A stretch of DNA of 64,000 bases from Candidatus Rokuibacteriota bacterium. GTDB lineage: Bacteria; Methylomirabilota; Methylomirabilia; Rokubacteriales; CSP1-6. Each line of letters opens with the position of its first letter. Within the stretch, counting starts at the first letter, position 1. Positions 1 to 29,308 of the stretch are shown here, piece after piece. Made by a program: the position numbers and the translations under genes. The stretch spans positions 230-64,229 of the forward strand of contig QHTE01000068.1 in the NCBI GenBank assembly GCA_003220685.1. The letters are read 5' to 3'. Below the pieces are notes generated by a model. That model was not told the DNA's origin, ran no database searches, and saw nothing but the letters and a program-made list of their open reading frames with translations.

Positions 1-452
1 AGAAGGTCGTGCACGCGTTCCGCGTGGCGCGCGCCCGCGCCGGACGGGAGACCAAGCTCGGCGGCGATCTCTGCTTCGGGTTCTCGTTCTACATCGCCGA
101 CAGCGTCGAGCAGGGGATCAAGGAGGCGACGCCGTTCTTCGAGGAGAACATCAAGATGTTCGCCCCGCTCGGGTTCGTACCGGGGCTGACACCCGAGCAG
201 ATCGAGGCCGTCGCCGACCCCAAGCGCGCGCGTCGGGCCGGGTTGCCCACCCTGCGCAACGCGCTGAAGGCGGGCACGTGGCTGATCGGCCCGCCGGAGC
301 AGATCACGGAGCAGCTCAAGGAGATCGAGCACAAGTATCCCGGGCTCGAAGTGATCAACGTCGGCCAGCCCGTCGGAACTCCGGAGGCGGTGATTCTCGA
401 GCAGCTCGAGCGCTTCGCGGCGGAGGTGATGCCGGCGTTCAAGCGCAAGTAG
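1..452 (+). CDS. LLM-class (luciferase-like) flavin/F420-dependent oxidoreductase, C-terminal part; the 5' end is outside the window
   Basis: Track ORF 9..452 stays open to the window edge. The C-terminal layout (GTWLIGPPEQITEQLKE..YPGLEVINVG..LERFAAEVMPAF) is typical of luciferase-like monooxygenases. Codon position 3 is strongly G/C. Confidence 0.7.
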   Translation, partial: KVVHAFRVARARAGRETKLGGDLCFGFSFYIADSVEQGIKEATPFFEENIKMFAPLGFVPGLTPEQIEAVADPKRARRAGLPTLRNALKAGTWLIGPPEQITEQLKEIEHKYPGLEVINVGQPVGTPEAVILEQLERFAAEVMPAFKRK

Positions 453-494
453 GCGAGGATGGCGCGCCGGGTGACCGGCGCGCCACGCGCGGGT

Positions 495-965
495 CTACGC
501 CGGCGCCGGCAGCCTGAATCCCTGCCGCGCCAGCAGCTTCCAGCTGCCGTTCTGCTTTTGCCACACTTGGAGCGCGCCGATCCGCGTGGTCGTCGCCTTG
601 CCGTCGAGCTCGGATTCGGCCAGGTAGATGTGGCGCGCGATGGCCGCATCGCCGACGACGGCCACCTTGAGCTCGGGAAATGCGAGTGACTTGACCACCT
701 GCTTGCGGGTCATCACGCCGTTGATGAATTGCTCCTTGGTCTCGACCCGGCCGTCCGAATGGCCGTAGCTGATCTGCGCGGCCGCGACCTGCTCCAGCCG
801 GGTCTTTTCCGCTCCGAGCAAGGCCTTCCTCAAGATTTCGACGTTCTCAGTGACCGCCGCCTCGTCGGCAGCGGCGTCGGCACTGGTGAAGCCGCCGAGC
901 AAGAGACCGGGAGCGGCCAGAGCGACTGCGCCTGCAACCGCCATGTCACGACGCGAGACGTCCAT
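495..965 (-). CDS. Exported NTF2-like (SnoaL/DUF4440-type) protein
   Basis: This is the lower part of track ORF 495..2036. The ATG at 965 opens MDVSRRDMAVAGAVALAAPG.., a twin-arginine-like signal, followed by about 125 aa with an NTF2-like pattern. The rest of the 513-aa ORF is antisense to gene 1101..1928 and is rejected. Confidence 0.65.
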   Translation of the reverse strand: MDVSRRDMAVAGAVALAAPGLLLGGFTSADAAADEAAVTENVEILRKALLGAEKTRLEQVAAAQISYGHSDGRVETKEQFINGVMTRKQVVKSLAFPELKVAVVGDAAIARHIYLAESELDGKATTTRIGALQVWQKQNGSWKLLARQGFRLPAPA

Positions 966-1100
966 GGGTGCCCTCCTCGAGGCCGGGTCTAACCCGATTT
1001 CGTCGAAGCGTACTCTCGTCCGGTGGCGCTTGACAAGGCACTCCGGTGCTGAGATAGGAGGAGCGCAGCGCGCTCCCAAAGCGGGTAGGAGGAGGAGACG

Positions 1101-1928
1101 ATGGACGCCGGGACCGGAAAGATCGCCTGTGGCCCGATCTGCTTCGCCCTGCAGTATCGCGACATCGACGGAGGAGCGCCGCAGCGCCAGGGCGCGGGAG
1201 GCAACGGCGGAAACCACCCCGATCAGGGTGTCTGCGTCCAGGTGCTCGGGGTCGTCGAGGGCGCCGAGCGAGAGCTGCTCCGGTTCGAGTGCTTCGACAA
1301 CCACCCGCACTATCATTATGATCCGGCCAACACCAACGTCCGGATCATGCTCGATCCCACGGTTACCGGCAATCCGCTCCGGTGGACGATGACCCAGCTG
1401 CGCCGCAAGCTGCCGGCGATGCTCGGCCGCGCCGGCTACGAGCAGATCGCCCTGCAGATCGACCCCTCCGAGCTCCTGCCCGTGCTGGACGAGGTCGAGG
1501 CCAGGGCGTGCGAGATGGCCGTCCGCCGGCGCCGCACCGTGCGCCACAACCGGGGGACGGACGTGTTCGAGGCCGGCAACATCCGGTTCGGCCTGGAGAT
1601 GCGCGTGGCCGGTCAGGGAGACGGCGGCATCGCCATCCACGTTCTCGGCGATATCGCCGGCCAGGAGGTCGAGCTGCTCGCGTTCGACTGCTTCCGAATC
1701 TACCCGCACTATCACTACGGGCCGATGTACAAGAACGAGCGCATCTATCTGGACAAGGCGCTGGTGCCCGATCCGTTCAAGTGGGCGCTCGATCAGTTCA
1801 AGGGCGGACGGCTCCCGGCGATGCTGACGCGCGCCGGCTATCCGACGGTGGCGGCCGCGCTCGACGAGGGGCTCGTGGCCGAGAAGCTCGTCGAGGTGGA
1901 GGCGCGGGGGCGGGCGATGCTCGCCTAG
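1101..1928 (+). CDS. Hypothetical protein made of two homologous halves, each with a CF-x3-PHYHY motif
   Basis: AGGAGGAGGAG lies 4 nt upstream of the ATG at 1101. The two halves align by eye: ..ELLRFECFDNHPHYHYDP..NPLRWTMTQLRRKLPAMLGRAGY.. versus ..ELLAFDCFRIYPHYHYGP..DPFKWALDQFKGGRLPAMLTRAGY... GC3 is high. I do not recognise the family. Confidence 0.8.
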   Translation: MDAGTGKIACGPICFALQYRDIDGGAPQRQGAGGNGGNHPDQGVCVQVLGVVEGAERELLRFECFDNHPHYHYDPANTNVRIMLDPTVTGNPLRWTMTQLRRKLPAMLGRAGYEQIALQIDPSELLPVLDEVEARACEMAVRRRRTVRHNRGTDVFEAGNIRFGLEMRVAGQGDGGIAIHVLGDIAGQEVELLAFDCFRIYPHYHYGPMYKNERIYLDKALVPDPFKWALDQFKGGRLPAMLTRAGYPTVAAALDEGLVAEKLVEVEARGRAMLA

Positions 1929-1938
1929 GCAGCTCGCC

Positions 1939-2832
1939 TCAGGCGAGGTGCTTCTTGAAGAAGGCGATCGTCCGCTCCCAGGCCAGCTTGGCCGCCGCTT
2001 CGTTGTAGCGCGGCGTCGAGTTGTTGTGGAAGCCATGCTGGGTTCCGGGATAGATGTGCATCTCGTACTGAACCCCGCTCGCCTTCAGCGCCGCCTCGTA
2101 CGCCGGCCACAGTGCGTTGACGCGCTCGTCGCTCTCCGCGTACTGGATCAGCAGCGGTGCCTTGATCTCCGCCACTCGTACCGTCTCGGCCGCCGCGCCG
2201 TAGAACGGGACGGCCGCCTTCAGTTCTGCGCCGAGCACGACCGCCAGGAAGTTGGTCGTGCTGCCACCCCAGCAGAAGCCCGTGACGCCCAGCTTGCCGG
2301 TCGACAGCGCATGCGCTTTCAGGAAACGCGCGCTGTTGACCATGTCCGTGCGGAGCTTGCCCTGGTCGAGGCCGGCCTGCAGCGTGCGGCCGTCGTCGTC
2401 GTTCCCGGGATACCCGCCGACGGGTGACAGCCCGTCGGGGGCGAGCGCCAGGAACCCCTCGGTCGCGGCTCGGCGCGCCACGTCCTCGATGTACGGGTTG
2501 AGGCCGCGGTTCTCGTGAATCACCAGGACGGCGGGGAATGGCCCTTGCGAGCCCGGCTGCACCAGATACCCGCGCATCGTGCCAGACGTCCCACCCGGCG
2601 ACGGATAGGTCACGTACCGCGCCTTGATTCGGGGATCGGTGAAGGAGATCGTCTGCGCGAGCGCGTACCGGGGCAACAGCGCCTGCGCCATCGCGAGCGC
2701 CGACACACCGCCGATGGTCAGCGCGCCGGCCCGCTGCAGGAACTCGCGCCGGTCGATGCTCCCGTGGCAGTACTCGTCGTAGAGATCGAAGACGCGCTGG
2801 TCGATCTCGAGCTGGGTCAGCGCCGGCACCAT
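1939..2832 (-). CDS. Dienelactone hydrolase family protein with a Tat-type signal
   Basis: Track ORF 1939..2865. The start is set at the internal ATG 2832 (MVPALTQ..), which is preceded by GAGGAG. The Tat motif is DRREFLQRAGALTIGG. Family motifs are present: VIHENRGLNPYIEDVARR, GVTGFCWGG, HGF. Confidence 0.85.
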   Translation of the reverse strand: MVPALTQLEIDQRVFDLYDEYCHGSIDRREFLQRAGALTIGGVSALAMAQALLPRYALAQTISFTDPRIKARYVTYPSPGGTSGTMRGYLVQPGSQGPFPAVLVIHENRGLNPYIEDVARRAATEGFLALAPDGLSPVGGYPGNDDDGRTLQAGLDQGKLRTDMVNSARFLKAHALSTGKLGVTGFCWGGSTTNFLAVVLGAELKAAVPFYGAAAETVRVAEIKAPLLIQYAESDERVNALWPAYEAALKASGVQYEMHIYPGTQHGFHNNSTPRYNEAAAKLAWERTIAFFKKHLA

Positions 2833-2852
2833 GATGTTCTCCTCTGCTCCCG

Positions 2853-4166
2853 TCACTCGATGCAACTCAGGCTCGTGAAGCCGTAATGGTCGTCATAGCG
2901 CCAGGGCGGCGGTAACGGCCCGGCCGTCGGGAGCGCCGCGCCATCGACGCCGCCGTGAAGCCCGATCGTCGAGCCGCGCCGCACGATCTTCGTCGGCAGC
3001 CCGATCACCCGCGCGACGGCCGGCGCCTCGGGTACGGCCAGGGTGACGTTCTTGAAGAAGCTCGTGCTCACGATCGCGTCGGCCTCGGGCAGCGGCTCGA
3101 GCATGGTCGGCGCGCCGTCGGTCGCGTCGTCCTCGCTGGTGAGGAACACGGTCTTGATGCCCAGGCGCTCGCAGGCCTGGATACTGCGGACCACTTCGAT
3201 GAACTCGTTGCCGCCCGCGTCCCACGTCACGACCGCGCCGTCGGCGCCGAGCTGCTGGGCGAGCTTGGCCGTCTGGTTGGCCATCAGCTGCTTCTCGGTC
3301 TGCGTGGTCCACTCGGTCCTGAGCGAGATGACGCCGAGGAAATTCCAGTCACGGCCGTGGCGGCGGTAGAGGTCGAGGAGCAGCGGATTGTTGGCGACGG
3401 TCCACGACATCGCGAACGCGGTGCGATAGGGGCCGGTGAGCGCGCCGTCGAGGATCTCGTTCGGGTGCAGATACCAGGGCGGCGTGAGCTGGGTCAGGCC
3501 GTACGTCGCCGTGCAAAACGCCGAGGGCGAGCCCGACATCGCCTGCGGTGAGTGCACGCACCAGATGTAGATCACCTTCGGGAGCTTCGGGTCGACCGGC
3601 GTCAGCTCGAAGATCTGGTACTCGGGCGGCGCGAGCGCGCGCACCGCTTCGCCGAGCTGATCGGCAACGGTGAGGGCGGCCTTGTGCACGGCGTAGTTCT
3701 TCACCTCTTCGTTCAGGGTGGAATCGGGCTCGACGACCAGACAGAGGTGCAGAAGCTTCTGATAGGGGTACATCTCGCCGTAGTGGCCGGACATGTCGAG
3801 GTACGTCTCGACGAAGTCGCCGCCGGCGTCGTGCCAGTTGACGCTCGATACCTCGACCACGCCCATGCCGGCCAGGCGATGCGTGCGCCCCTCGCCGACC
3901 GTGGCGATCTCGCGCCCACAGATCCCGGGATAGCAGACGCCGGGCCCCTCGACCTTGATGCGCGGCTCGATCACGTCGCGCACCGGCCAGATCCGCACCG
4001 ATTCGCCGGGCTTCGCGATCTCGAGCTCGGCGCTGGCGATCCGCGGATCCTGGCGCACCGCGGCGAGCACGGCGTCGCAGTCCACCGTGAGCCGGCCCGC
4101 GTCGTAGCGCGTCGCTCGGCCAAAGGTGATGTCCGTGACCGGGAAGGTGCCCATCTCAAGACGCAT
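2853..4166 (-). CDS. grdE: Glycine/sarcosine/betaine reductase component B alpha/beta proprotein-like (GrdE family)
   Basis: The N-terminus [16 protein letters not shown].. and the block AKPGESVRIWPVRDVIEPRIKVEG match my recollection of GrdE. Its start overlaps the stop of the upstream grdB-like gene by 11 nt (ATGCGTCTTGA). The symbol denotes the family only. Confidence 0.75.
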   Translation of the reverse strand: MRLEMGTFPVTDITFGRATRYDAGRLTVDCDAVLAAVRQDPRIASAELEIAKPGESVRIWPVRDVIEPRIKVEGPGVCYPGICGREIATVGEGRTHRLAGMGVVEVSSVNWHDAGGDFVETYLDMSGHYGEMYPYQKLLHLCLVVEPDSTLNEEVKNYAVHKAALTVADQLGEAVRALAPPEYQIFELTPVDPKLPKVIYIWCVHSPQAMSGSPSAFCTATYGLTQLTPPWYLHPNEILDGALTGPYRTAFAMSWTVANNPLLLDLYRRHGRDWNFLGVISLRTEWTTQTEKQLMANQTAKLAQQLGADGAVVTWDAGGNEFIEVVRSIQACERLGIKTVFLTSEDDATDGAPTMLEPLPEADAIVSTSFFKNVTLAVPEAPAVARVIGLPTKIVRRGSTIGLHGGVDGAALPTAGPLPPPWRYDDHYGFTSLSCIE

Positions 4167-5499
4167 GCGCGGCCTCCTTACCGGACGCCATCGGGTCGAA
4201 GAGCGTCGGGCCGGGCACGGCGATCGTCAGCGTCTGCAGCGCGGTGGTCACGATGCGCATGCCGAAGGCGTAGTCCTTCTCCGGGCTCAAGGTCGGGTCG
4301 CCGCACACGTGCTCGATGCGCGCGCCGCGGATCACGCGGTTCGCGCCGGTCGTGAGGGCGAAGTTGTAGATAGCCGAGATCATGCCGACCGGGATTCCGA
4401 CTCGCTCGATCTCCTTGGCGATCGTTGCGCCGCAACGATTGCAGGTCCCTCAGGTGGCGACGAGCAGAGCGCCATCGACGCCGCCGGCCTTGAGGTCCGC
4501 GGCGATACTGCGGCCGTGTCCCGCCGAGACCGCCACCGGCGTGCTCACGCCGGGCAGCGCATAGATGTGCTCGTGCACGCGGCCGACCTTGCCCTGGCGC
4601 TCGAGATCGCGCAGGAACGAGAGCGGCAGGATGTAATTCGGATTGCTGTTGACGATGTGGTTGAAGTAGCCGGCGTGGTACGCCTCCCACTCGGCCGGCG
4701 AGAGCGATTCGAGCTCGGCCACCGTGTGCCGGTGATAGCGCACGGCGTTCGCCGAGACCTGCCGGTCCGGATTGCCCTTCCGCACGAGGCCGCCGGTGGT
4801 GACCATCGCGATGCGGGCGCGCGCGAGATCGGCGATCGGCGGCGCGGGCGAGACGCGCTCGGGCGGCGCGTACGGCACCTCCGAGCGATAGGGCCGGCCG
4901 TGGAGCTTGTCGAGCAGCATGTCGAGCGCGCGCTGATAGCCCGGGCGTCCGCGGTCGTGCACCCGCCGCGTCCCGCGGCGCATGTAGCCCTCCGCCTCCG
5001 AGGGCCCCAGCGTCTGGCCTCGACCCAGGCGGCGCGCGAGCGGCGCCAGCGCGTCGAGCGCGGCCTGCATCGACGTCGTCGATGCGCCCGTCGGGACGAT
5101 GTAGATCCCGCGCCGAGCGTTCGAGGCGCCCGGGTTCTCCGGATGCATCGCCGTGATCGCCGGGATGCCGCGGCTCTGCGCGACCTTGCACGCGAGCGCG
5201 CAGGCCAGGCCGTAGCGCCCGGAGCCGAACGCCGGGCCGGCCACCAGCACGTCGGGCTTGAGGCGGTCGAGCTCGGCGCCGATCGCGCGCGCGGCGTCCG
5301 CCTCGTTCTCGCTGGCGAAGTTGTCGCCGCAGACGAGGGTCGCCTCGACGCGCGCGTCGTCGCCCAGCGCTTTCTCGAGGACACGGCCGGGACCGACGGC
5401 GCCGGCTCGCACCGAGACACCGACATGCGCCTGGTCCTCGCCGCCGATGCCCCCGAAGAACTGGTTCACGTAGTGCACGATGCGAAGCGGACCGCTCAT
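4156..5499 (-). CDS. grdB: GrdB-type selenoprotein (glycine/sarcosine/betaine reductase component B, Sec-containing subunit); in-frame UGA at 4450-4452 read as selenocysteine
   Basis: Track ORFs 4450..5499 and 4156..4383 are in the same frame. Translating through the TGA gives ..[49 protein letters not shown].., the conserved GrdB Sec motif (T-U-GTC-x-RCGAT..KEIER.GIP). The N-terminus is [19 protein letters not shown] hairpin follows the UGA. Confidence 0.85.
4418..4442 (-). promoter_or_regulatory. SECIS-like stem-loop downstream of the UGA in the grdB-like gene
   Basis: The minus-strand RNA reads GCAAUCGUUGC-GGC-GCAACGAUCGC. That is an 11-bp stem with one A.C mismatch and a G-rich apical loop. 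It starts 8 nt after the UGA. Confidence 0.6.
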
Positions 5500-5543
5500 G
5501 GTGTCATCCCTCCCGAACCAGCCTGTCGGTGGGGATTCTGTCG

Positions 5544-5549
5544 TATCCT
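5544..5549 (+). promoter_or_regulatory. Candidate -10 hexamer (TATCCT) 6 nt upstream of the aroC ATG; leaderless-type arrangement
   Basis: The sequence reads TATCCT-cgacgc-ATG(5556). There is no Shine-Dalgarno. The same geometry recurs at six other genes. Confidence 0.35.
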
Positions 5550-5555
5550 CGACGC

Positions 5556-6632
5556 ATGGGCAACACCTGGGGGCAGCTGTTTCGCGTGACGACGTGGGGG
5601 GAGTCGCACGGCGGCGCCACCGGCGCGATCGTCGACGGCTGCCCTCCGCGGCTGCCCCTGTCGGAAGCGGACATCCAGCCGGATCTCGACCGCCGCGCGC
5701 CCGGCCAGAGCGCGCTCGTGTCGCAGCGCAAGGAGTCCGACACGGTGCAGATCCTGTCCGGCGTCTTCGAGGGCCAGACCCTCGGCACGCCGATCAGTCT
5801 CCTGATCCCGAACGAGGACATGCGGCCGGGCGACTACCGTGAGGTCCGCGAGAAGTACCGGCCGAGCCACGCCGATTACACCTACGACGCGAAGTACGGG
5901 GTGCGCGACTGGCGCGGCGGCGGCCGGACGAGCGCCCGGGAGACCGCCGGCCGCGTGGCGGCCGCCGCCATCGCGCGCAAGCTGCTCGCCGTGCGCTTCA
6001 ACGTGACGGTGGTGGCGTGGGTCTCGAAAGTCGGGCGGCTCGTCGCGGAGTGCGACCACGAAAAGGTGACCCGCGAGCAGGTCGACACGACGCCGATCCG
6101 CTGTCCCGACCTCGTCGTCGCCGAGCGGATGATCGCGGCCGTCGAGGCCGCGCGCAAGGACGGCAACTCGCTCGGCGGCATCGTCACCTGCGCCGTGCGC
6201 GGCTGTCCGCCCGGCTGGGGCGAGCCGGTGTTCGATCGGCTCGAGGCCGATCTGGCGAAGGCGGTGATGAGCCTGCCGGCGAGCAAAGGGTTCGAGATCG
6301 GCTCGGGCTTCGCCGGCACCGACCTCACGGGTGCCGAGCACAACGACGAGTTCTACATGGAGAGCGGACGGGTCCGCACGCGCACCAACCGCTCGGGCGG
6401 CGTGCAGGGCGGCATCACGAACGGCGAGACGATCTACTTCCGTGTGGCGTTCAAGCCGACGGCCACGATCATGCGCGAGCAACACACCGTGGACATCTAT
6501 CACGAGGTGACGACCATCCAGGGCCGCGGCCGCCACGACCCGTGCGTGCTCCCGCGCGCGGTGCCCATGGTCGAGGCGATGACTGCGCTGGTGATCGTGG
6601 ACCACGCGCTGCGCCAGCAGGCGGTGACGTAG
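5556..6632 (+). CDS. aroC: Chorismate synthase
   Basis: [21 protein letters not shown].. with the canonical blocks (RPGHADY-like [24 protein letters not shown]). The start is set at the internal ATG 5556 of track ORF 5529..6632. Confidence 0.95.
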
Positions 6633-6643
6633 CCCGCGCGAAT

Positions 6644-6668
6644 CAGGGGGGCGGAAGCCGCCCCCCTG
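6644..6668. terminator. Bidirectional intrinsic-terminator-like hairpin between convergent genes
   Basis: CAGGGGGGCGG-aag-CCGCCCCCCTG forms a perfect 11-bp stem. It lies between the aroC stop (6632) and the stop of the minus-strand gene (6687). Confidence 0.6.
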
Positions 6669-6686
6669 ACCGACGCTTCGCTTGGT

Positions 6687-8471
6687 CTAGTCCTTGTCGT
6701 CCCGCTCCTTATCCCGGTCCCTGTCCCCGTCGTTGCCCTGCCCGGGAGGATTGGGGCCGCAGATCTTCCAGATCACGCCGGTCCCGGGAATCTGGACGAG
6801 CGGACCGTCGCCGGCAACCTTGAAGCCCGCGTCCGGGTCCGACTGCCCGAAGTCACGCACCGCGCCGTAGTCGACGAGGTACGCGCAGTCATCGGGTCCG
6901 AACTTCAGGTCCACCGGGCGGTTGATTCCCCTGATTCCAGACACAAACGCCTGTTCGAACGTCTTGTTGAAGGCAAACCGCTGAAGCGTGAGCTTGAGCG
7001 GCTCACCGGGTTTGCTGAAGTTGATGAGCTGAACGTCGTGCCCCTCTTCGGGCGTGCCGTTGGCCTTCGAGAACCCGAAGTCCCCCTCGCGGCCGGCCAG
7101 AGCTGCACCGCGCTTGACTGGACCGTGGACGAACGAGTTAGGCACGAAGTCGAGCCCGACGATCGCGACGTCCGAGGCCTCGAGGGCTAGAGGCACCGTG
7201 ATCGGCTGGGGCGGGAACGCGAGCACGGGTTGCACGGGCTTACCGACGACGGCGGCCGCATTGTCGTCGCCCGGGCCTCCCACGGGATTGAACACCGCCT
7301 GAGTCGAATCCAGGAAGCCGAACCGATCCGGCCAGCCGTGGTAGTCCGGGCTGCCGTCGGGATTCTGTTGCGCGAGGTGGAGGCGGTCCGGGGAGTTGTT
7401 GGTGGGCCGCGCGCCCCGCTCGTCTTCACCGTTCTCGGTCACGAACAGTCCGCCCTTCAAGGCATGGTCACGAGGCGCGAAGCGAATGCCGTAGGGGTTA
7501 CGGTACCCCCACGAGAAGGGCTGGATATTGTCCTGCGGATTCCTCGCGTTGAGCGGCGCTCTCAAGATGGCGCCGTCGCACACCCCGGAATGCGCCGCCC
7601 CCGTGTAGGCGGCGACGATCCCTCCGGGGTTCTGGACGCCAAACGGCGAGTACCCGCTCGTCTTGATCCCACCGCCGGAGTCGAACACATTGTTGCTGAG
7701 CTTGATGTCCTGACACGGGATATCGTGCTGGTTCGCGCCGCCGCCGTTGTCGCGGCCGACCACGCCCGAATTGGTCGTCGATCCCTGCGACCAGTAGATC
7801 CAGCCGTCCTTGAAGGTGATCTGCTCGGCCGGATGGTCGCCGGTCGGCAGACCGGAGATGAACTCGGTCACCTGTCCGTTCTCGGGGTTGACGATCACGA
7901 TGCGTGAGCTGTTGTTGTTTTGACCATTGGGGTTGGTTGCGCGGATGGCCTGGTTCGAGTCGGTGGCGAAGAGCCGCCCGCCTCGGAAGCCGTGCTCGAA
8001 CGCGATGTCGATCGCCGGACCATGGGGCAGGAGGCCGCCGCCGCTGGCCGTGGGCTTGGCGAGAGGGCCACCAGGGCGCTGCTGACCGCTTTCGTTGAAG
8101 ACCAGGATGCCGGGAGTGAAGGGATTGGCCGGCGAGAACACGCCACCGAGTAGCGGATTCGTCTCGTCGTTGCACATTCGGGTCTGGGGCGAGCCGCTGG
8201 GCAGGCCGTGTCCGGATTCGAGGACGAACACTTCGAACCGCTGCGAGTTGCCACGGAACGCGACGGCAGTCGGGAAGTTCAGGCCGCTCTTGAAAACCGA
8301 GACCGTGAAGCCGGGCGGTACGACGATGTCCTCGCCGTTTCCCGGATTGAAGAAGACGTCCTCTCCGGGACAGAGAGGATTGGCCGCGGCCGCTGCGAAG
8401 GTGGGCTGGGAAAGCAACGCTAGAGCGACGGCCACGAGCAACCAGCTGAAAGGGCCGACTTTGCTGTGCAT
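6687..8471 (-). CDS. Secreted beta-propeller protein (glucose/sorbosone dehydrogenase-like) with an acidic/basic low-complexity C-terminal tail
   Basis: The start is at internal ATG 8471 (MHSKVGPFSWLLVAVALALLSQPTFAAAA, a signal peptide), preceded by AAGGAG. The body is rich in G/N/P-repeated propeller-like strands. The C-terminus is ..GNDGDRDRDKERDDKD. Confidence 0.7.
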   Translation of the reverse strand: MHSKVGPFSWLLVAVALALLSQPTFAAAAANPLCPGEDVFFNPGNGEDIVVPPGFTVSVFKSGLNFPTAVAFRGNSQRFEVFVLESGHGLPSGSPQTRMCNDETNPLLGGVFSPANPFTPGILVFNESGQQRPGGPLAKPTASGGGLLPHGPAIDIAFEHGFRGGRLFATDSNQAIRATNPNGQNNNSSRIVIVNPENGQVTEFISGLPTGDHPAEQITFKDGWIYWSQGSTTNSGVVGRDNGGGANQHDIPCQDIKLSNNVFDSGGGIKTSGYSPFGVQNPGGIVAAYTGAAHSGVCDGAILRAPLNARNPQDNIQPFSWGYRNPYGIRFAPRDHALKGGLFVTENGEDERGARPTNNSPDRLHLAQQNPDGSPDYHGWPDRFGFLDSTQAVFNPVGGPGDDNAAAVVGKPVQPVLAFPPQPITVPLALEASDVAIVGLDFVPNSFVHGPVKRGAALAGREGDFGFSKANGTPEEGHDVQLINFSKPGEPLKLTLQRFAFNKTFEQAFVSGIRGINRPVDLKFGPDDCAYLVDYGAVRDFGQSDPDAGFKVAGDGPLVQIPGTGVIWKICGPNPPGQGNDGDRDRDKERDDKD

Positions 8472-8472
8472 G

Positions 8473-9978
8473 TCAACTCCTTGTGAGTTGTGCGCATCCT
8501 CTTCCACCGAGCACCCCGCGTGTCTCGTTGGTGGAGAGCAGGGGGCGGGAGGCGCGCGCGACTGGGTGTGACTGCAAGTGGCGGCCATGGGACTCCTCTC
8601 TGTTGGGGGGGCCTAATACTCGCGCGAGCCAACCGCGAACGCAAGCGGGAAGCTGGTCGGCACGGCGGAACGGCGGCGCGTCGAAGTCGGCGAGGAGCTC
8701 GGCGACGAGCGTCTCGAGCGAGAACACCTCGTCGATCCGTCCGGCCAGCGCCGGCTGCGCGGCGAGGGCGACGTCCTTGAGATGGCGGCGCTCCTTGACC
8801 GCGACGGCGGACCAGTCGTCGACGAGCGCCTGCGCGCTGGCGCGATCGGTGTCGCGCGCGATCAGCCGGGCCAGGCGCTCGGAGAAGACGAGACCCTGCA
8901 GCGATTCCAGATTGGCTTTCATGCGCTCGGGATCCACTACGAGGCCGGCGGCGATCCGCTCGAGCGCGTCCAGCGCGCTGCCGGCCGCGTCGACCAGCTC
9001 GGGAACGGTCACGAGCTCGGCCTGCCAGCCGCCGAGCGCGCGCTCGTGCTCCCCGACCGAGCTGGAGAGCAGGGTCGTCAGCAGCCCTGGCGCGCGGGCC
9101 GCCGCGGTCAGAGCCTGAAGACAGGCGACGGGGTTGCGCTTGTGGGGCATCGCGCTCGAGCCGCCGACGCCTTTCACGGGAGCGGACTCGAGCATCTCGC
9201 CGACTTCGGCCTGCGAGAGCAGCGCCACGTCGCGCGCGATCTTGCCGACGGTGGTCGTGACGAGCGCGAGCTCGGTCAGGAGCCGCGTGAGCTCATCGCG
9301 GTGGTCGTGCCACGCTCGCGCCTCGTGCAGGTGCAGGCGCATCGCGAGACCGTTGCGCACCATCGCGCGCTTGGCGCCGATCGCGTCCAGGGTGCCGACC
9401 GCGCCGCCGAGCTGGATGCAGAGCGCCCGCTCGCGCGCCTCGGCCAGGCGCAGGCGGCAGCGGTGGAGCGCGGCCGCCCACCGAGCAATCTTCAGCCCGG
9501 CCGTGATCGGCGTGGCGGGCTGCATCAAGGTACGGCCGAGCATCACAGCGCCGGCGTGGCGGCGCGCGTGGCCGACCAGCCGGCCCGCCGACGCCGCCAG
9601 GACGCCGTCGGCGTCGGTGAGACACGGCTTCAGGCACAGGACCAGCGCGGTGTCGAGCACGTCCTGGCTCGTCGAGCCGTAGTGCACGAACGCCGCCGCG
9701 CGCGCGTCGACCTTGGCGACGTGCTCGGTGAGCGCTCGGACGAGCGGCACCGCGAGCGAGCCCGAGCGCTTGGCCTCGGCGGCGAGCGCGTCGGGCGCCG
9801 GGCGCAGGTCGGCGCAGACCCGGGCGATGATGTGCGCGGCCTCCGGCGGCACGATGCCGGCGTCGGCCTCGGCGGCGGCCAGCGCGCGCTCGAAATCGAG
9901 CATCGCGCGGACGAACGCCTCGGCGGACAGCGCCTGGGTGAATGCGTCGCGCGCGAAGCCGCGGCCGACGATGTTCAC
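8473..9978 (-). CDS. pcaB: 3-carboxy-cis,cis-muconate cycloisomerase (class II fumarase/aspartase family)
   Basis: The signature GSSAMPHKRNP is present, and the gene lies directly downstream of pcaHG. The last ~50 codons have poor GC3 and may be non-native read-through. Confidence 0.85.
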   Translation of the reverse strand: MNIVGRGFARDAFTQALSAEAFVRAMLDFERALAAAEADAGIVPPEAAHIIARVCADLRPAPDALAAEAKRSGSLAVPLVRALTEHVAKVDARAAAFVHYGSTSQDVLDTALVLCLKPCLTDADGVLAASAGRLVGHARRHAGAVMLGRTLMQPATPITAGLKIARWAAALHRCRLRLAEARERALCIQLGGAVGTLDAIGAKRAMVRNGLAMRLHLHEARAWHDHRDELTRLLTELALVTTTVGKIARDVALLSQAEVGEMLESAPVKGVGGSSAMPHKRNPVACLQALTAAARAPGLLTTLLSSSVGEHERALGGWQAELVTVPELVDAAGSALDALERIAAGLVVDPERMKANLESLQGLVFSERLARLIARDTDRASAQALVDDWSAVAVKERRHLKDVALAAQPALAGRIDEVFSLETLVAELLADFDAPPFRRADQLPACVRGWLARVLGPPNREESHGRHLQSHPVARASRPLLSTNETRGVLGGRGCAQLTRS

Positions 9979-9991
9979 GAGCGCTCGCGCG

Positions 9992-10540
9992 CTAGAGCTC
10001 GATGAACACCGCTTCGCCGGCGCCCCGCAGGCGGACGTCCCAGCGATAGATCCTCGGATCGCGGGGATCGCGAATCGCGATCAGCGTGCGCAGCCGCTCG
10101 GGATCGCCGATCGCGCGGGCCAGCGGATCGTCCTTCACCACTTCGAGCGGGGCGAGGAACACGCGCGTGTGCAGGGCACGGAGGAGCCCGCGGGCGAAGA
10201 TCGCGACGCTGATCTGGGGCGCGTACGTTTCCCCGCCGGGCCCCTTGAAGGAGCCGGGCATGACGGTCTCGATCGCGTAGCGGCCGCCGGGGTCCGTCGA
10301 GACGCGGCCGTAGCCGTACGGTCTGGCTCCGTCGTCGCCCTTGGGAAATTGGCCGGCCGGGTCGGCCTGCCAGGTCTCGAAGAGGGCGTCATAGATCGGC
10401 GCGCCCGCGCCGTCGAACAAATACCCGGTGAGCGTGATGCGCTCGCCGCGGCCGGGGAAGAGCACCGTGCCGCCGTCCTTCCACAAGAGCTCGCGCGCGA
10501 AGAACGGGCCGACCGTCTGCGAGGGGGTGGGCTTCGTCAT
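9992..10540 (-). CDS. pcaG: Protocatechuate 3,4-dioxygenase alpha subunit
   Basis: This is the lower part of track ORF 9992..10915 from ATG 10540 (MTKPTPSQTVGPFF..). Supporting blocks are ..FETWQAD.., ..APQISVAIFARGLLRALHTRVF.. and ..YRWDVRLRGAGEAVFIEL. Confidence 0.9.
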   Translation of the reverse strand: MTKPTPSQTVGPFFARELLWKDGGTVLFPGRGERITLTGYLFDGAGAPIYDALFETWQADPAGQFPKGDDGARPYGYGRVSTDPGGRYAIETVMPGSFKGPGGETYAPQISVAIFARGLLRALHTRVFLAPLEVVKDDPLARAIGDPERLRTLIAIRDPRDPRIYRWDVRLRGAGEAVFIEL

Positions 10541-10542
10541 CG

Positions 10543-11187
10543 CTACACTCCCATCGGCGTCGCGCGCGGTCCGCGCAGCACCATGTCCCAGCGGTAGCCG
10601 AGCGCGACGCCCTCGATGCCGTGCTCGAGATCGAGCTCGGCGATGAGCCGCTTGCGGCCGGCCTCGGGCACGCTCTGGAAGATCGGATCGATGGCCAGCA
10701 GGGGGTCGCCGGGGAAGAACATCTGCGTGATGAGCCGCTGCGCGTACGCGCTGCCGAGGTTCTGCCACGGATACGCGCCGGGCTTGATCGTGACGATACG
10801 ATACCGGCCGTCGTCGTCCGTGAGCACCTGCCCCTTGCCGAGGAAGTTGGGATCGAGCGGCGCGTCGTGGTCGTCCACCGGGTGCGGATAGCGTCCGGAG
10901 GCGTTGGCCTGCCACACCTCGACGAGCGACCGTCGCACCGGCCGGCCGTCCTCGTCGAGCACGCGGCCGACGAGTATCATCTTCTCGCCGAGCGGCGCGC
11001 TCCGGCCCCAGGTCGTCAGATCGGCCTCGCTGTCTTTCACGAACTGTCTCGGGAACGCCGGCCCCGTCGCCTCGAGCGGACTCGGCGAGACGCGCACCAG
11101 CGGCTGCGACGGCGCGCGCAGGCGCGTGCTCTTGTAGTCCGGGTAGAGGTAGGGTGGGTGGACGTCATCGGTGCGTGTCTCGGGCAT
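10543..11187 (-). CDS. pcaH: Protocatechuate 3,4-dioxygenase beta subunit homologue that lacks the W-R-P-x-H-I-H-F iron-ligand segment
   Basis: The blocks VEVWQANASGRYPHP..APLDPNF..IKPGAYPWQN are followed directly by LGSAYAQRLITQMFFPGDPL. About 13-15 residues, including both His ligands, are absent. The length is 214 aa against the usual ~235-240. Confidence 0.8.
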   Translation of the reverse strand: MPETRTDDVHPPYLYPDYKSTRLRAPSQPLVRVSPSPLEATGPAFPRQFVKDSEADLTTWGRSAPLGEKMILVGRVLDEDGRPVRRSLVEVWQANASGRYPHPVDDHDAPLDPNFLGKGQVLTDDDGRYRIVTIKPGAYPWQNLGSAYAQRLITQMFFPGDPLLAIDPIFQSVPEAGRKRLIAELDLEHGIEGVALGYRWDMVLRGPRATPMGV

Positions 11188-27940: not shown

Positions 27941-28960
27941 TCAGCTCGCCGCCGGAGGACGTCGCGCGAACCAGGGCTGGGCGCCCTCGAGCTGAGCGCC
28001 CAGACGAAAGAGCGTCGCTTCGTCGCCGAAGCGCGCGGCGAACTGCACGCCGATCGGCAGACCCGAGCGGGACCAGGCCAGAGGCACCGACACCGCGGGG
28101 TTCCCGGCCGAGTTGAAGAGCGAGGTGAAGCCGATCGTCGCGCGGTTCTTCACCCGCTACGACCTGCTGCTCTCGCCGACGATGTGCCGGCCGCCGTACC
28201 CCCTCGGCATCCTCGATCTCATGACCGACGACGTCGAGCGATACACGCAGGCCATCCTCGGCTCGACTCGGCCGATGCGATGAACGACGCCGATCGACCG
28301 CGCGTAGTCGGCCGCGCGGGCCTTGTGCCCGTCCACGGCGCGCGCCCAGGTGAGACGCTCGACGTCGCCCGCGGCCAGCTCGCGGCCGAGCGCGGCGCGG
28401 ATATTGGCGCTGACGATGATGAGCGTCGCCTCGCCGAGCGCTCGGGCGTCGACGTCCGGCGTCGCCTCTTCCACCTGATGGCCGAGCCGCTCGCAGAGCC
28501 GCCCGGCCGCGACGGCGGCCTCGGCGCACTCCGCGTCGACGGGCTGCCCGTTCCACGGCCTGGTCGTGATCGCGATGCGCAGACGCCCGGGATCGCGCCC
28601 GACCTCTTCGAGAAACGGCCGCGTGGGAGGCGGCGCCCAGTACGGGTCGCCGATATCGGGCCCGGACGTCGCGTCGAGCAGCGCCGCGCTGTCTCGCACG
28701 GTTCGCGTCACCGCGTGACCGACCGAGGCGCCGCCCCAGCCTTCGCCAGCGTCCGGCCCCATCGGATTGCGCGCGCGCGTCGGCTTGAGGCCGAAGAGGC
28801 CACAACAGGAGGCCGGGATCCTGATCGATCCGCCGCCGTCCGTGGCGTGCGCCATGGGGACGACGCCGGCCGCGGCGGCGGCCGCCGAGCCGCCGCTCGA
28901 GCCGCCGGGGCTGTGAGTCAGGCTCCACGGATTGCGGGTCGGGCCGAACAGGCGGGGAAC
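27941..28960 (-). pseudogene. Amidase-signature gene remnant: the N-terminal ~150 codons are missing and an internal segment is inverted
   Basis: The minus-strand frame reads ..[58 protein letters not shown], then breaks. The next expected block ([13 protein letters not shown]..) is encoded on the plus strand at 28140-28265. The C-terminus (..GFTSLFNSAGNPAVSVPL..) resumes on the minus strand in the same frame. Confidence 0.8.
28140..28267 (+). other. Inverted internal segment of the amidase remnant (about 128 bp), flanked by short imperfect inverted repeats
   Basis: Plus-strand translation from 28140 gives [42 protein letters not shown]. This is the amidase block that belongs between the two minus-strand parts. 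The flanks are GCCGATCGTC (28130-28139) and GACTCGGC (28265-28272), which are inverted repeats. Confidence 0.75.
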
Positions 28961-28995
28961 AGCGCGCTGCCGAAGCTGAAAGATCTGGGCGCGCA

Positions 28996-29308
28996 CTAGA
29001 TGAGATCCATGACTCCGGGCATCGGTGTCCTCCGCTGTGGCTCTCGCGCGGGTGCGCCAGCGCGATCTGCCCGACCTCGGACGACCACGCCGCGTCCAGC
29101 GCAGCGCGGTCGTCGAACCAGAGCTCGGCGACACCGTCCCACGGCTCGCGGCCCTCGTGCGACGTCGAGCCGGTGATCAGGCACACGCGATATTTTCTGA
29201 GATTCGGCAGCTTCTTCCCGTAGGCCACATGCTCGTCGAGCCACCAGCGATGGAAGCGCTCGCGGTCCAGCTCGACGGGCGTCGCAGCAGCACCATCGCC
29301 TTGATCAT
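28996..29308 (-). pseudogene. EthD-family protein gene with at least one frameshift
   Basis: ATG 29308 overlaps the SDR stop (ATGA) and opens MIKAMVLLRR. The rest of the domain ([42 protein letters not shown]..) is in another frame. The shift is at a CCC run near 29277-29279. The 3' end is uncertain. Confidence 0.6.

What the first reader, a model, noticed from the sequence alone, without database searches (positions are those of the whole stretch)
4156..5499. GrdB-type selenoprotein gene hidden by an in-frame UGA that the ORF track treats as a stop
Track ORFs 4450..5499 and 4156..4383 (minus strand) are in the same frame and are separated only by TGA at 4450-4452. Reading through gives ..[10 protein letters not shown]-[UGA][30 protein letters not shown]..TTGANRVI... 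This is the conserved selenocysteine neighbourhood of GrdB/GrdF/GrdH (..T-U-GTC-x-RCGAT..KEIER-x-GIP..). Conservation continues for about 95 codons after the UGA. An 11-bp stem with a G-rich loop (4418-4442) starts 8 nt after the UGA, where a bacterial SECIS belongs. Standard gene callers will report a truncated protein plus a 75-aa orphan.
Basis: partly seen in the sequence, partly recalled or inferred. Interest (0 to 1): 0.75.

Follow-up and report, generated by a model that had tools for sequence, protein, structure and literature searches.

The report
Selenocysteine GrdB-type reductase gene, split by callers
The two adjacent reading frames are one real gene for a selenocysteine-containing "protein B" subunit of a glycine/betaine-type reductase in a soil Rokubacteria genome; this is a well-known kind of hidden gene, but it belongs to an uncharacterised branch of the family whose substrate is unknown.

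Summary
ORFs 4450..5499 and 4156..4383 (minus strand) share a frame and are split only by TGA 4450-4452. Reading through gives a 447-aa protein that matches Pfam GRDB and NCBIfam TIGR01918 end to end.

Evidence that the TGA is a decoded Sec codon:
- TGA sits at this codon in all 97 family copies from 82 genomic loci, and in two independent near-identical assemblies.
- The 88 codons after it change almost only synonymously among close relatives.
- Rfam SECIS_4 hits 4412-4449 above its gathering score.
- The hairpin shows compensatory changes and is built from codons that are rare in this 69% GC genome.
- TGA is otherwise the ordinary stop (37 of 50 genes).

Public gene calls split the gene as predicted: 349 aa plus an orphan of about 75 aa.

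It is not an orthologue of GrdB, GrdF, GrdH or PrdB. It fails all four equivalog cutoffs and the published glycine and sarcosine motifs. Its partner gene (2853..4166) lacks the Asn-Cys site that makes the pyruvoyl group, as in betaine GrdI and fluoroacetate FarE.

The clade spans Rokubacteria, Binatia, Entotheonella and Dehalococcoidia. Many orthologous loci have grdB-grdE-grdC-grdA operons; the window has only B-E. Sec machinery, GrdA and GrdC could not be checked for this genome.

The parts
4156..5499 (-). Complete coding sequence of the GrdB-family selenoprotein B subunit. It is 447 aa, with Sec at residue 350 and the stop TGA at 4156-4158.
   Evidence: The translation has one internal TGA. 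Pfam PF07355 6e-114; NCBIfam TIGR01918 414 bits against a cutoff of 65, covering profile 1-430/431. Orthologues are 57-93% identical over residues 1-447 in 37 loci.
4450..4452 (-). UGA selenocysteine codon (residue 350), the first residue of the U-G-T-C-N-R-C (UxxCxxC) redox motif encoded at 4432-4452.
   Evidence: TGA is at the aligned codon in 97/97 family copies in 82 loci, and in independent assemblies L082 and L083. TGA is otherwise the normal stop in 37/50 window genes.
4412..4449 (-). Bacterial SECIS element. The hairpin spans 4418-4442, with an 8-bp core stem (4432-4439 paired with 4421-4428) and the apical loop GGC at 4429-4431.
   Evidence: Rfam RF01990 SECIS_4 scores 39.9 bits, above the gathering score of 38. 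91% of cells are paired, against 22-54% for slid controls, and 4 pairs show compensatory changes. The stem is built from the rare codons AAT (17%), CGT (5.8%) and GCA (2.8%).
4156..4449 (-). Post-UGA C-terminal segment (97 codons), which gene callers report as an orphan of about 75 aa starting at Met 4383.
   Evidence: Synonymous/non-synonymous codon changes relative to the window are 16/0 (L001), 11/0 (L007), 25/4 (L010) and 33/17 (L031). An exhaustive search finds 167 clusters, nearly all 45-140-aa orphans starting at their residue 1-2.
2853..4166 (-). Partner subunit gene (GrdE/GrdG/GrdI family, 437 aa). Its ATG (4164-4166) overlaps the grdB-like stop by 11 nt, and an AAGGAGG Shine-Dalgarno sequence lies at 4173-4179 inside the grdB-like C-terminal coding region.
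   Evidence: Pfam PF09338 276 bits. It falls below the GrdG (221 vs 780) and FarE (131 vs 675) cutoffs. It has TGPYRTAFAM where GrdE has SGNC(242)VSACDK.
5500..5514 (-). Translation start region of the grdB-like gene, with the GGGAGGGA Shine-Dalgarno-like motif at 5507-5514, 7 nt before ATG 5497-5499.
   Evidence: Read directly from the sequence. The N-terminus MSGPLR(I/V)VHYVNQFF is shared by the homologues.
1939..2865 (-). YghX-type dienelactone hydrolase with a Tat-like signal. It follows the grdE-like gene on the same strand and is possibly co-transcribed, but it is not a conserved partner.
   Evidence: NCBIfam NF041440 405 bits (cutoff 460); Pfam DLH 1.5e-44. Its position relative to B-E varies among relatives: adjacent in L001 and L004, 7-8 kb away in L005 and L007, absent outside Rokubacteria.

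Best explanation
Window 4156-5499 (minus strand) is a single gene. It encodes a 447-residue, selenocysteine-containing substrate-binding subunit ('protein B', GrdB superfamily) of a thioredoxin-dependent glycine/sarcosine/betaine-type reductase, in a Candidatus Rokubacteria (Methylomirabilota) genome.

Shown:
- UGA 4450-4452 lies at the catalytic position of a conserved U-x-x-C-x-x-C motif.
- It is followed directly by a conserved, covarying SECIS hairpin.
- The downstream 97 codons evolve as coding sequence.
- The next gene (2853-4166), which is translationally coupled, encodes the GrdE-family partner subunit.

Inferred from established family chemistry (Andreesen 2004, as summarised in PMC13188914 and PMC10838667): SelB with Sec-tRNA reads the UGA with the help of the hairpin. 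The selenol attacks the alpha-carbon of an X-CH2-COO- substrate bound by the B/E heterodimer, releasing X. The carboxymethyl group passes to selenoprotein A (GrdA). GrdC then turns it into acetyl phosphate, with thioredoxin re-reducing the system.

The partner subunit lacks the Asn-Cys self-cleavage site that creates the pyruvoyl (Schiff-base) group in GrdE and GrdG. The B subunit also fails the glycine and sarcosine motifs. The substrate is therefore most likely one that needs no imine activation: a quaternary ammonium (betaine-like) compound or another alpha-substituted acetate with a good leaving group. It is not glycine or sarcosine, and the exact substrate is unknown.

GrdA and GrdC are not in the window. 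They are presumed to be encoded elsewhere and shared, as in organisms that carry several protein-B pairs.

The confidence given (0.88) applies to the core claim of one gene, a true selenoprotein and a GrdB-superfamily protein B. I put the claim of a non-pyruvoyl subunit with a substrate other than glycine or sarcosine at about 0.6, and any particular substrate at below 0.3.
For: One gene, correct family:
- Full-length HMM matches.
- 37 orthologous loci align over residues 1-447.

Sec codon:
- 97/97 TGA.
- The same TGA in independent assemblies L082 (98-100% identical) and L083 (99.6% identical).
- TGA is the usual stop, so the genetic code is standard.

Translation past the UGA:
- Changes are concentrated at third codon positions, with 16/0 and 11/0 synonymous/non-synonymous changes in the closest relatives.
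- The Shine-Dalgarno sequence and the start of the next gene lie inside or overlap the 3' end.

SECIS:
- Rfam hit above the gathering score.
- Compensatory pairs U-A<->C-G at two positions, and CGU/ACG<->AGA/UCU in L077.
- Rare-codon construction of the stem, joint probability about 3e-4.

Partner and context:
- PF09338 gene adjacent.
- Orthologous operons are B-E-GrdC-GrdA, with GrdC passing its equivalog cutoff (604 vs 450) and GrdA carrying its own CFV-U motif.

Not glycine, sarcosine, betaine or proline type:
- Scores are 364<602, 408<800, 374<775 and 71<300, while control sequences pass.
- The Nobu et al. motifs fail (PMC9751293).

Non-pyruvoyl partner:
- [TSN]GPYRTAFA replaces SGNC in all 39 clade members examined.
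- The literature states that GrdI and FarE likewise lack the processing cysteines (PMC10838667).

Sec use in the lineage:
- GrdA with TGA occurs in Methylomirabilota loci L026, L036 and L037.
- A Prx-like gene in L081 has TGA at the active-site position.
- A review reports a Methylomirabilota MAG with 63 predicted selenoproteins (PMC13188914).
Against: - No selA, selB, selD or tRNA-Sec is present in the 64-kb window or in about 1.3 Mb of fetched flanks. Decoding capacity for this particular genome is therefore assumed.
- No GrdA, GrdC, GrdD, TrxA or TrxB is in the window, even at permissive thresholds. The window ends only 2.8 kb downstream of the grdE-like gene, and the one overlapping metagenome contig adds just 78 bp.
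- The hairpin is not thermodynamically exceptional for its composition (z = -0.89).
- Part of the SECIS_4 score is not independent of protein homology, because the element lies in the conserved C-N-R-C-G-A-T coding region.
- The substrate inference rests on the absence of a motif and on analogy with GrdI and FarE. No neighbouring transporter or enzyme is conserved that would point to a substrate.
- GrdD was not found in any orthologous operon, so the downstream chemistry may differ from the textbook scheme.
- One protein-level soil assembly (P0001) shows Cys at the position.
Confidence: 0.88

Rival explanations
1. The protein is simply a divergent canonical glycine reductase GrdB (substrate glycine), used for Stickland-type or reductive-glycine metabolism.
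For: It belongs to the same superfamily and keeps the UxxCxxC motif. Orthologous operons contain bona fide GrdC and GrdA. JGI pipelines label the homologues 'glycine reductase'. Glycine reductases have been reported in Dehalococcoidia (PMC9751293).
Against: - TIGR01917 scores 364 bits against a cutoff of 602, while a control Clostridial GrdB scores 845.
- The published GrdB motif fails at GPxF[NF]AGRYG, AHGGxD, RV[IL]PxD and TxGNxTxV.
- The partner lacks Cys242 and the second processing Cys that are needed for the pyruvoyl group forming the Schiff base with glycine (PMC10838667).
Confidence: 0.1
2. It is a functional equivalent of betaine reductase GrdH/GrdI: glycine betaine is cleaved to trimethylamine plus acetyl phosphate.
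For: The partner is of the non-pyruvoyl type, like GrdI. The B subunit shares His-Ala-Gly-(Phe/Tyr) with GrdH, where GrdB and GrdF have His-Gly-Gly. Lineages carrying the clade (soil, sponge symbionts, ocean Dehalococcoidia) live where betaine is abundant (my own knowledge). A formaldehyde-dehydrogenase-type gene sits upstream in Entotheonella and Binatia-like loci.
Against: - The GrdH model scores 374 against a cutoff of 775, lower than the GrdF model scores for the same protein.
- In the tree the clade is not sister to GrdH.
- The Asp of HAGFD is replaced by Phe/Tyr, and the Dehalococcoidia orthologues have HGGYY.
- No BCCT or OpuA-type betaine transporter is conserved nearby.
Confidence: 0.25
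3. The TGA is a true stop. The locus is a truncated 349-aa protein or pseudogene followed by an unrelated small ORF.
For: This is how every public gene caller reads it. No Sec machinery was seen in the window.
Against: - The downstream frame is conserved across four phylum-level groups, with synonymous-dominated change.
- It completes the family profile to position 430/431 and carries the catalytic CxxC.
- TGA, never TAA or TAG, is found in 97/97 copies.
- The SECIS covaries.
- The orphan ORF's start is not conserved as a start: matches begin at query positions 10-40 in different clusters.
Confidence: 0.02
4. The TGA is an assembly or sequencing error for TGC/TGT, so the gene is a Cys homologue. 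Alternatively, UGA is read as Trp or Gly under an alternative genetic code.
For: One protein-level assembly (P0001, SRC/Plass) has Cys at this position. Distant family members with Cys exist (P0157, P0181, P0220, P0261). Some database entries show Trp here (P0138, P0156, P0207, P0268).
Against: - Two independent assemblies from different projects have TGA at the same position, as do all 97 genomic copies.
- TGA terminates 37 of 50 genes in the window, including this gene itself. This excludes codes 4 and 25.
- The Trp entries are best explained as gene calls made with the wrong code.
- The Cys-bearing homologues are at most 45% identical and lie outside the clade.
Confidence: 0.02

Closest known systems
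Glycine reductase selenoprotein B, GrdB with proprotein GrdE (Clostridium sticklandii, Peptoclostridium acidaminophilum; TIGR01917)
   Same: Same superfamily and length. Sec sits at the same aligned position in UxxCxxC. The same type of in-frame SECIS is built on the C-x-R-C-G-A-T codons. A GrdE-family partner gene is adjacent. Orthologous loci pair with GrdA (CFVU) and GrdC.
   Different: About 41% identical. It scores below the equivalog cutoff (364 vs 602) and fails the glycine-specific motifs. The gene order is B then E, rather than E-(A)-B. The partner lacks the Asn-Cys242 cleavage site and so has no pyruvoyl group. No GrdD, GrdX, TrxA or TrxB is in the operon. The hosts are non-Firmicute lineages, and this window carries genes of aerobic metabolism.
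Betaine reductase GrdH/GrdI (NF040795)
   Same: The partner subunit is an unprocessed, non-pyruvoyl protein. The B subunit shares the H-A-G-(F/Y) segment. It would draw on a shared GrdA/GrdC module.
   Different: It scores 374 against a cutoff of 775 and is not sister to GrdH in the tree. The conserved Asp after HAGF is replaced by Phe. The partner motif is GPYRTAFA, against GSFMPCSSK in GrdI.
Fluoroacetate reductase FarB/FarE of Cloacibacillus porcorum (NF053623; PMC10838667)
   Same: It is a protein-B pair that has diverged to a substrate needing no Schiff base. The E subunit lacks the processing cysteines. The pair depends on GrdA and GrdC encoded elsewhere.
   Different: The FarE model scores only 131 against a cutoff of 675. 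FarB is reported to lack the CxxC cysteines, whereas the window protein keeps U-GT-C-NR-C.
D-proline reductase PrdB/PrdA (TIGR04483)
   Same: Homologous C-terminal Sec domain and UxxC motif.
   Different: PrdB is about 240 aa and lacks the N-terminal domain. It scores 71 against a cutoff of 300. PrdA is a pyruvoyl proprotein.
Rfam RF01990 SECIS_4
   Same: It matches all 38 model positions directly after the UGA, with the same 6-bp core stem and GGN loop.
   Different: The outer pair of the model is non-canonical here. In this clade the stem is extended to 8 bp by the AAU/AUC codons.

Membership tests
Selenoprotein B superfamily (Pfam PF07355 GRDB / NCBIfam TIGR01918) | Full-length profile match above the curated cutoff | tested here: met
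   PF07355 scores 381 bits (cutoff 22). TIGR01918 scores 414 bits (cutoff 65), with residues 6-434 on profile 1-430/431.
Selenoprotein B superfamily (Pfam PF07355 GRDB / NCBIfam TIGR01918) | In-frame UGA at the catalytic position of the UxxCxxC motif | tested here: met
   The motif is T-U-G-T-C-N-R-C. TGA is at this column in 97/97 family copies.
Selenoprotein B superfamily (Pfam PF07355 GRDB / NCBIfam TIGR01918) | Bacterial SECIS hairpin immediately 3' of the UGA | tested here: met
   Rfam SECIS_4 scores 39.9 against 38. Covariation supports the stem, as does its rare-codon construction. The folding z-score alone is not significant.
Selenoprotein B superfamily (Pfam PF07355 GRDB / NCBIfam TIGR01918) | Adjacent GrdE/GrdG/GrdI-family partner subunit | tested here: met
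   A PF09338 gene at 2853-4166 overlaps the stop by 11 nt.
Selenoprotein B superfamily (Pfam PF07355 GRDB / NCBIfam TIGR01918) | Host encodes Sec-decoding machinery (selA, selB, selC, selD) | not testable with these tools
   None is present in the window or in the fetched flanks. Support is indirect only: other TGA-containing genes in relatives and a review reporting 63 selenoproteins in a Methylomirabilota MAG.
Complete Grd reductase complex | GrdA (selenoprotein A), GrdC/GrdD (protein C) and the thioredoxin system are available | tested here: inconclusive
   They are absent from the 64-kb window. GrdC and GrdA are adjacent in 14-15 orthologous loci, including the Methylomirabilota locus L026. 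GrdD was not found in any orthologous locus.
Glycine-specific GrdB (TIGR01917) | Equivalog score at or above 602 bits | tested here: not met
   364 bits. The control L059 scores 845 bits.
Glycine-specific GrdB (TIGR01917) | Nobu et al. GrdB motif (GPxF[NF]AGRYG ... AHGGxD[QTAP] ... RV[IL]PxD ... TxGNxTxV) | tested here: not met
   The window has [23 protein letters not shown] and LPGVSTPV. Twelve Firmicute-type controls match the motif (motif from PMC9751293).
Glycine-specific GrdB (TIGR01917) | Partner is a proprotein cleaved at Asn-Cys242 to give a pyruvoyl group | tested here: not met
   The aligned site reads TGPYRTAFAM, and no Cys is present in any clade member.
Sarcosine-specific GrdF (NF040794) | Score at or above 800 bits, plus the GrdF motif (IHGGYDR ... 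TTGTGT) | tested here: not met
   408 bits, and the motif is absent. The control L067 scores 827 bits.
Betaine-specific GrdH (NF040795) | Score at or above 775 bits | tested here: not met
   374 bits. The control L062 second copy scores 796 bits.
Betaine-specific GrdH (NF040795) | Partner (GrdI) is unprocessed and lacks the pyruvoyl-forming cysteines | tested here: met
   The window partner and GrdI both lack the NC site. The literature statement is in PMC10838667.
D-proline reductase PrdB (TIGR04483) | Score at or above 300 bits; protein of about 240 aa | tested here: not met
   71 bits, covering the C-terminal half only.
Fluoroacetate reductase FarE/FarB (NF053623) | FarE score at or above 675 bits; FarB lacks the CxxC cysteines | tested here: not met
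   The partner scores 131 bits. The window B subunit retains C353 and C356.

The most novel reading that the evidence does not exclude
The clade to which this gene belongs may be a further, biochemically undescribed substrate class of selenium-dependent Grd-type reductases. The clade spans Rokubacteria, Binatia-like bacteria, Entotheonella/Tectomicrobia and marine Dehalococcoidia. It is defined by gene order B then E, the motifs YHAGYFN / LPGVSTPV in B, and an invariant GPYRTAFA in place of the pyruvoyl site in E. It would work without a pyruvoyl group and apparently without GrdD (operon B-E-C-A), in lineages that also carry oxygen-dependent metabolism. If so, a Stickland-type, acetyl-phosphate-yielding reductive cleavage of some abundant alpha-substituted acetate (a betaine-like osmolyte or similar) would be widespread in soils, sponges and the ocean interior, and is currently invisible because every copy is mis-called as a truncated protein.
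Probability: 0.4. Interest if true: 0.6.

Novelty: new member of a known kind. Interest (0 to 1): 0.33.

Why it matters
The core finding is ordinary: GrdB-family selenoproteins, their UGA codon and their in-frame SECIS have been textbook since the 1990s, and NCBI already labels a Rokubacteria homologue 'selenoprotein B'.

The practical point is annotation. Essentially every public copy of this gene is stored as a 349-aa fragment plus an orphan. The homology search returned thousands of homologues, and 167 representative clusters cover the orphan piece alone. Pathway inference for these uncultured phyla therefore misses or mislabels the enzyme.

The modest scientific value is at subfamily level. 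This is a coherent, widely distributed clade whose two subunits fail the tests for glycine, sarcosine, betaine, proline and fluoroacetate specificity. Its partner subunit cannot make the pyruvoyl cofactor. Identifying its substrate would add a reaction to carbon and nitrogen cycling in soil Rokubacteria, sponge symbionts and deep-ocean Dehalococcoidia.

Tried and rejected
1. Thermodynamic test of the hairpin: z = -0.89 against dinucleotide shuffles. It is uninformative in a 69% GC sequence, so I relied on covariation and codon usage instead.
2. tRNA-Sec search: ARAGORN on the window and on 42 related loci found none.
3. Sec and Grd genes in the window:
   - Pfam and NCBIfam annotation of most of the GC3-called genes across the window found none.
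   - tblastn with GrdA, GrdC, GrdD, TrxA, TrxB and GrdX, even at E = 0.01, found none in the window.
4. Extending the window leftwards: an exact 60-mer scan of metagenome contigs found one contig (L083) that adds only 78 bp.
5. Other read-through TGA candidates in the window: only the grdB site survives; the four others are adjacent genes that happen to share a frame.
6. Substrate clues from the neighbourhood: clustering all flanking ORFs of 39 orthologous loci showed only GrdC and GrdA recurring across phyla. The YghX hydrolase next to the pair is not conserved in position.
7. Solved structures: no PDB sequence relative for either subunit.
8. Structure prediction:
   - The 87%-identical proxy P0001 with a shallow alignment gave mean pLDDT 59, with the active-site and C-terminal regions below 50.
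   - No geometric conclusions were drawn and no fold search was run.
9. Literature: no paper in the library links Rokubacteria, Entotheonella or SAR202 to Grd-type reductases. The primary paper behind the '63 selenoproteins in a Methylomirabilota MAG' statement is not held.
10. P0001 as a Cys variant: it comes from a protein-level assembly without a contig and cannot be verified.


Full report
**Observation.** The sequence is as described. The ORF listing gives minus-strand ORFs 4450..5499 (349 aa) and 4156..4383 (75 aa). Translating 4156-5499(-) in one frame yields 447 codons interrupted only by TGA at 4450-4452, with the context ...[30 protein letters not shown].... The window is 69% GC with about 90% GC at third codon positions. 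A GC3-based scan for TGA codons flanked by coding-like sequence on both sides finds this site as the only genuine candidate in 64 kb. TGA is the ordinary stop of 37 of 50 genes here, including this gene's own terminator, so the genetic code is standard.

**Family.** With Cys substituted for the stop, the protein matches Pfam GRDB (381 bits). It also matches NCBIfam TIGR01918, 'glycine/betaine/sarcosine/D-proline family reductase selenoprotein B', at 414 bits (cutoff 65) over profile positions 1-430 of 431. The segment after the TGA is therefore needed to complete the family profile. The next gene, 2853-4166(-), is a PF09338 'Gly_reductase' protein of the GrdE/GrdG/GrdI family (276 bits). Its ATG overlaps the grdB-like stop by 11 nt, and a perfect AAGGAGG lies 6 nt upstream, inside the grdB-like C-terminal codons. 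Ribosomes are thus expected to traverse the post-UGA segment.

**Is the UGA decoded?**
- A genome scan returned 80 loci, and two more came from contig look-ups. The closest are Candidatus Rokubacteria/Methylomirabilota MAGs, at 85-93% amino-acid identity over residues 1-447.
- Across these 82 loci, all 97 GrdB-family copies have TGA at the aligned codon. None has TGC, TGT, TAA or TAG.
- Two independent assemblies of nearly the same genome carry the same TGA and an identical downstream 45 nt. They are an ENA contig (L082) and a JGI soil contig (L083, 99.6% identical over window 1-8695). This excludes a sequencing error.
- Over the 88 codons after the TGA, synonymous versus non-synonymous codon differences from the window are 16/0 (L001), 11/0 (L007), 25/4 (L010), 18/15 (Entotheonella L016) and 33/17 (Dehalococcoidia L031). 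Changes are concentrated at third positions. That is the signature of a translated frame.

**SECIS.**
- Rfam's SECIS_4 model hits 4412-4449(-), directly after the UGA, at 39.9 bits (gathering score 38). It is the only Rfam hit in the window.
- The hairpin 4418-4442 has an 8-bp core, a GGC loop and two outer pairs beyond an A.C mismatch.
- Its free energy is not exceptional for this composition (z = -0.89), so I used two other tests.
- Codon usage: the stem is built from the codons AAU-CGU-UGC / GCA-ACG-AUC. In this window AAT, CGT and GCA account for only 17%, 5.8% and 2.8% of their synonymous families, a joint probability of about 3e-4. This indicates selection on the RNA.
- Covariation: in an alignment of 68 family members, 91% of cells pair, against 22-54% when the 3' partners are slid by 1-3 columns. 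Four pairs show changes on both sides. The changes include U-A<->C-G at two positions, one of which involves a Thr->Ala replacement, and a triple CGU/ACG<->AGA/UCU swap in L077.
- Part of the Rfam score is not independent of protein homology, since the element lies in conserved codons. The covariation and the rare-codon evidence are independent of it.

**What gene callers do.** The homology search returned 2,840 proteins at E <= 1e-10. Nearly all of the best 120 are 348-349 aa and end at ...LLVAT. Annotated contigs show a 349-aa GRDB product followed by an unannotated 73-77-aa ORF. An exhaustive search with the 97-aa post-UGA segment found 167 representative clusters. Almost all are 45-140-aa orphans beginning at their first or second residue. 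A few long proteins span the site. They carry Cys (P0157, P0181, P0220, P0261), Gly, Thr or Asp, or 'W' (probably TGA called under code 4/25). All are at most 45% identical and lie outside this clade. One full-length entry with Cys at 87% identity (P0001) is a protein-level Plass assembly without a contig and cannot be checked.

**Which selenoprotein B?**
- The protein fails every substrate-specific model: GrdB 364 (cutoff 602), GrdF 408 (800), GrdH 374 (775) and PrdB 71 (300). Control sequences from Clostridial loci pass: GrdB 845, GrdF 827, GrdH 796.
- In a neighbour-joining tree it sits in a coherent clade containing Rokubacteria, Binatia-like MAGs, Entotheonella/Tectomicrobia and marine and groundwater Dehalococcoidia. 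This clade is separate from the Firmicute GrdB/F/H groups.
- Nobu et al. (PMC9751293) published diagnostic motifs for glycine-specific GrdB and sarcosine-specific GrdF. The window protein keeps the shared N-terminal elements and the UxxCxxC motif.
- At the specificity segments, however, it has [23 protein letters not shown] and LPGVSTPV. GrdB has GPAFNAGRYG, AHGGYD, RVLPVD and TVGNGTSV at the same segments.

**Partner subunit.** In GrdE and GrdG the aligned segment reads SGNC(242)VSACDK, the Asn-Cys self-cleavage site that generates the pyruvoyl group. GrdI has SGSFMPCSSK there. The window protein has TGPYRTAFAM, and [TSN]GPYRTAFA is essentially invariant in all 39 clade members across four phylum-level groups. 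PMC10838667, citing Bednarski et al. 2001, states that FarE, like betaine GrdI, lacks the two processing cysteines and is not a proprotein. The same paper explains that the carbonyl is needed only for substrates that form a Schiff base. By that logic the window enzyme acts on a substrate that needs no imine activation. This step is an inference.

**Context.** Clustering the flanking ORFs of 39 orthologous loci shows that only two families recur across phyla next to the B-E pair. They are a bona fide GrdC (604 bits, cutoff 450) and GrdA with its own C-F-V-U motif, giving a B-E-C-A operon. This operon occurs in the Binatia-like, Entotheonella and Dehalococcoidia loci and in one Methylomirabilota locus (L026, 91% identical GrdB).
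- GrdD, TrxA and TrxB were not detected in these operons, even at E = 0.01.
- The window and most close Rokubacteria loci have only B-E.
- Several relatives carry a second, E-then-B pair 4-5 kb away, plus GrdC (L081, L033, L034, L010, L012).
- The window ends 2.8 kb past the grdE-like gene, and I could not extend it. Whether this genome has GrdA and GrdC is therefore open.
- No sel genes or tRNA-Sec occur in the window or in any flank.
- Indirect support for Sec use in the lineage comes from three sources: GrdA with TGA in L026, L036 and L037; a Prx-like gene with TGA at the peroxidatic position in L081; and a review reporting a Methylomirabilota MAG with 63 predicted selenoproteins (PMC13188914).

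**Mechanism.**
- Shown: one gene; Sec codon plus SECIS; a coupled partner gene; clade-level divergence at the specificity motifs; loss of the pyruvoyl site.
- Inferred from family chemistry: SelB-dependent Sec insertion; nucleophilic attack of Sec350 on the alpha-carbon of an X-CH2-COO- substrate; transfer to GrdA; formation of acetyl phosphate by GrdC; re-reduction by thioredoxin.
- Open: the substrate is most probably betaine-like or another good-leaving-group acetate, not glycine or sarcosine.

**Verdict.** As a phenomenon this is already known, and NCBI already names a Rokubacteria homologue 'selenoprotein B' while still truncating it (P0094). I therefore rate it a new member of a known kind, with modest interest. 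The added value is the recognition of a widespread, uniformly mis-annotated, uncharacterised, non-pyruvoyl Grd subfamily. A low-confidence AlphaFold model (pLDDT 59) and the absence of any PDB relative mean that no structural argument could be made.

Noticed in passing
L081:2072-2704 (-): In a contig from a close relative (GrdB 88% identical), two adjacent 'AhpC-TSA' ORFs of 95 and 98 aa are one frame joined by TGA at ...EFFGAAFAPV-*-VANIQ..., the peroxidatic-Cys position. This is a candidate Prx-like selenoprotein that gene callers also split.
   Followed up: partly
L081:15430-18008; also L010, L012, L033, L034: A second GrdE-like/GrdB-like pair lies 4-5 kb from the first in several Rokubacteria. 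Its order is E then B, it is about 45% identical to the window protein, and it has TGA followed by G-T-S (UxxS) instead of UxxC. It is followed by a DsbA-like gene and GrdC. It also fails all substrate-specific models.
   Followed up: partly
L013, L014, L016-L018, L021, L024, L026, L040 (operons); L027, L029, L031, L032, L045: The orthologous operons are grdB-grdE-grdC-grdA with no detectable GrdD, TrxA or TrxB within 10 kb, even at E = 0.01. Protein C may work without its alpha subunit here, or GrdD may be encoded elsewhere.
   Followed up: partly
L024:8663-9982 (-), L022:7273-8391 (+), L021 upstream of grdB: A class-III alcohol / S-(hydroxymethyl)mycothiol (formaldehyde) dehydrogenase sits directly upstream of the operon in Entotheonella and a Binatia-like MAG. 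This is a weak hint of a link to methylated-amine metabolism.
   Followed up: no
window 8473-11187 (-): These genes encode protocatechuate 3,4-dioxygenase alpha and beta subunits and a Lyase_1-family enzyme (the pcaB-like position). The window also holds luciferase-like monooxygenases and a CODH-like Mo-hydroxylase (56547-58916). The organism therefore has oxygen-dependent metabolism, which is unusual company for a Stickland-type reductase.
   Followed up: partly
P0138, P0156, P0207, P0268 (database proteins): Some database entries show Trp at the Sec position, most likely because TGA was translated under genetic code 4 or 25 by a metagenome pipeline. P0207 (697 aa) is a fused GrdE-GrdB protein.
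   Followed up: no
P0001 (SRC, SRR5262245): This is the only full-length close homologue (87% identical) with Cys at the Sec position. It comes from a protein-level assembly, so it could be a real Cys variant or a read error that bridged the two ORFs.
   Followed up: partly
window 6687-8588 (-): A 633-aa protein with an N-terminal signal-like hydrophobic segment and a C-terminal Asp/Arg/Lys-rich tail has no Pfam match at E <= 1e-6. The gene is conserved next to aroC in L082.
   Followed up: no
window 28157-29134 (-): This ORF matches only the middle of the amidase profile (positions 109-305 of 445) and has Arg-rich ends. It may be a frameshifted or truncated amidase gene, or my ORF boundaries may be wrong.
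   Followed up: no
window 1101-1928 (+): This protein has two tandem DUF7700 domains (254 bits). It is convergent with the yghX-like gene, and a short GC-rich hairpin at 1933-1947 lies between the two gene ends.
   Followed up: no
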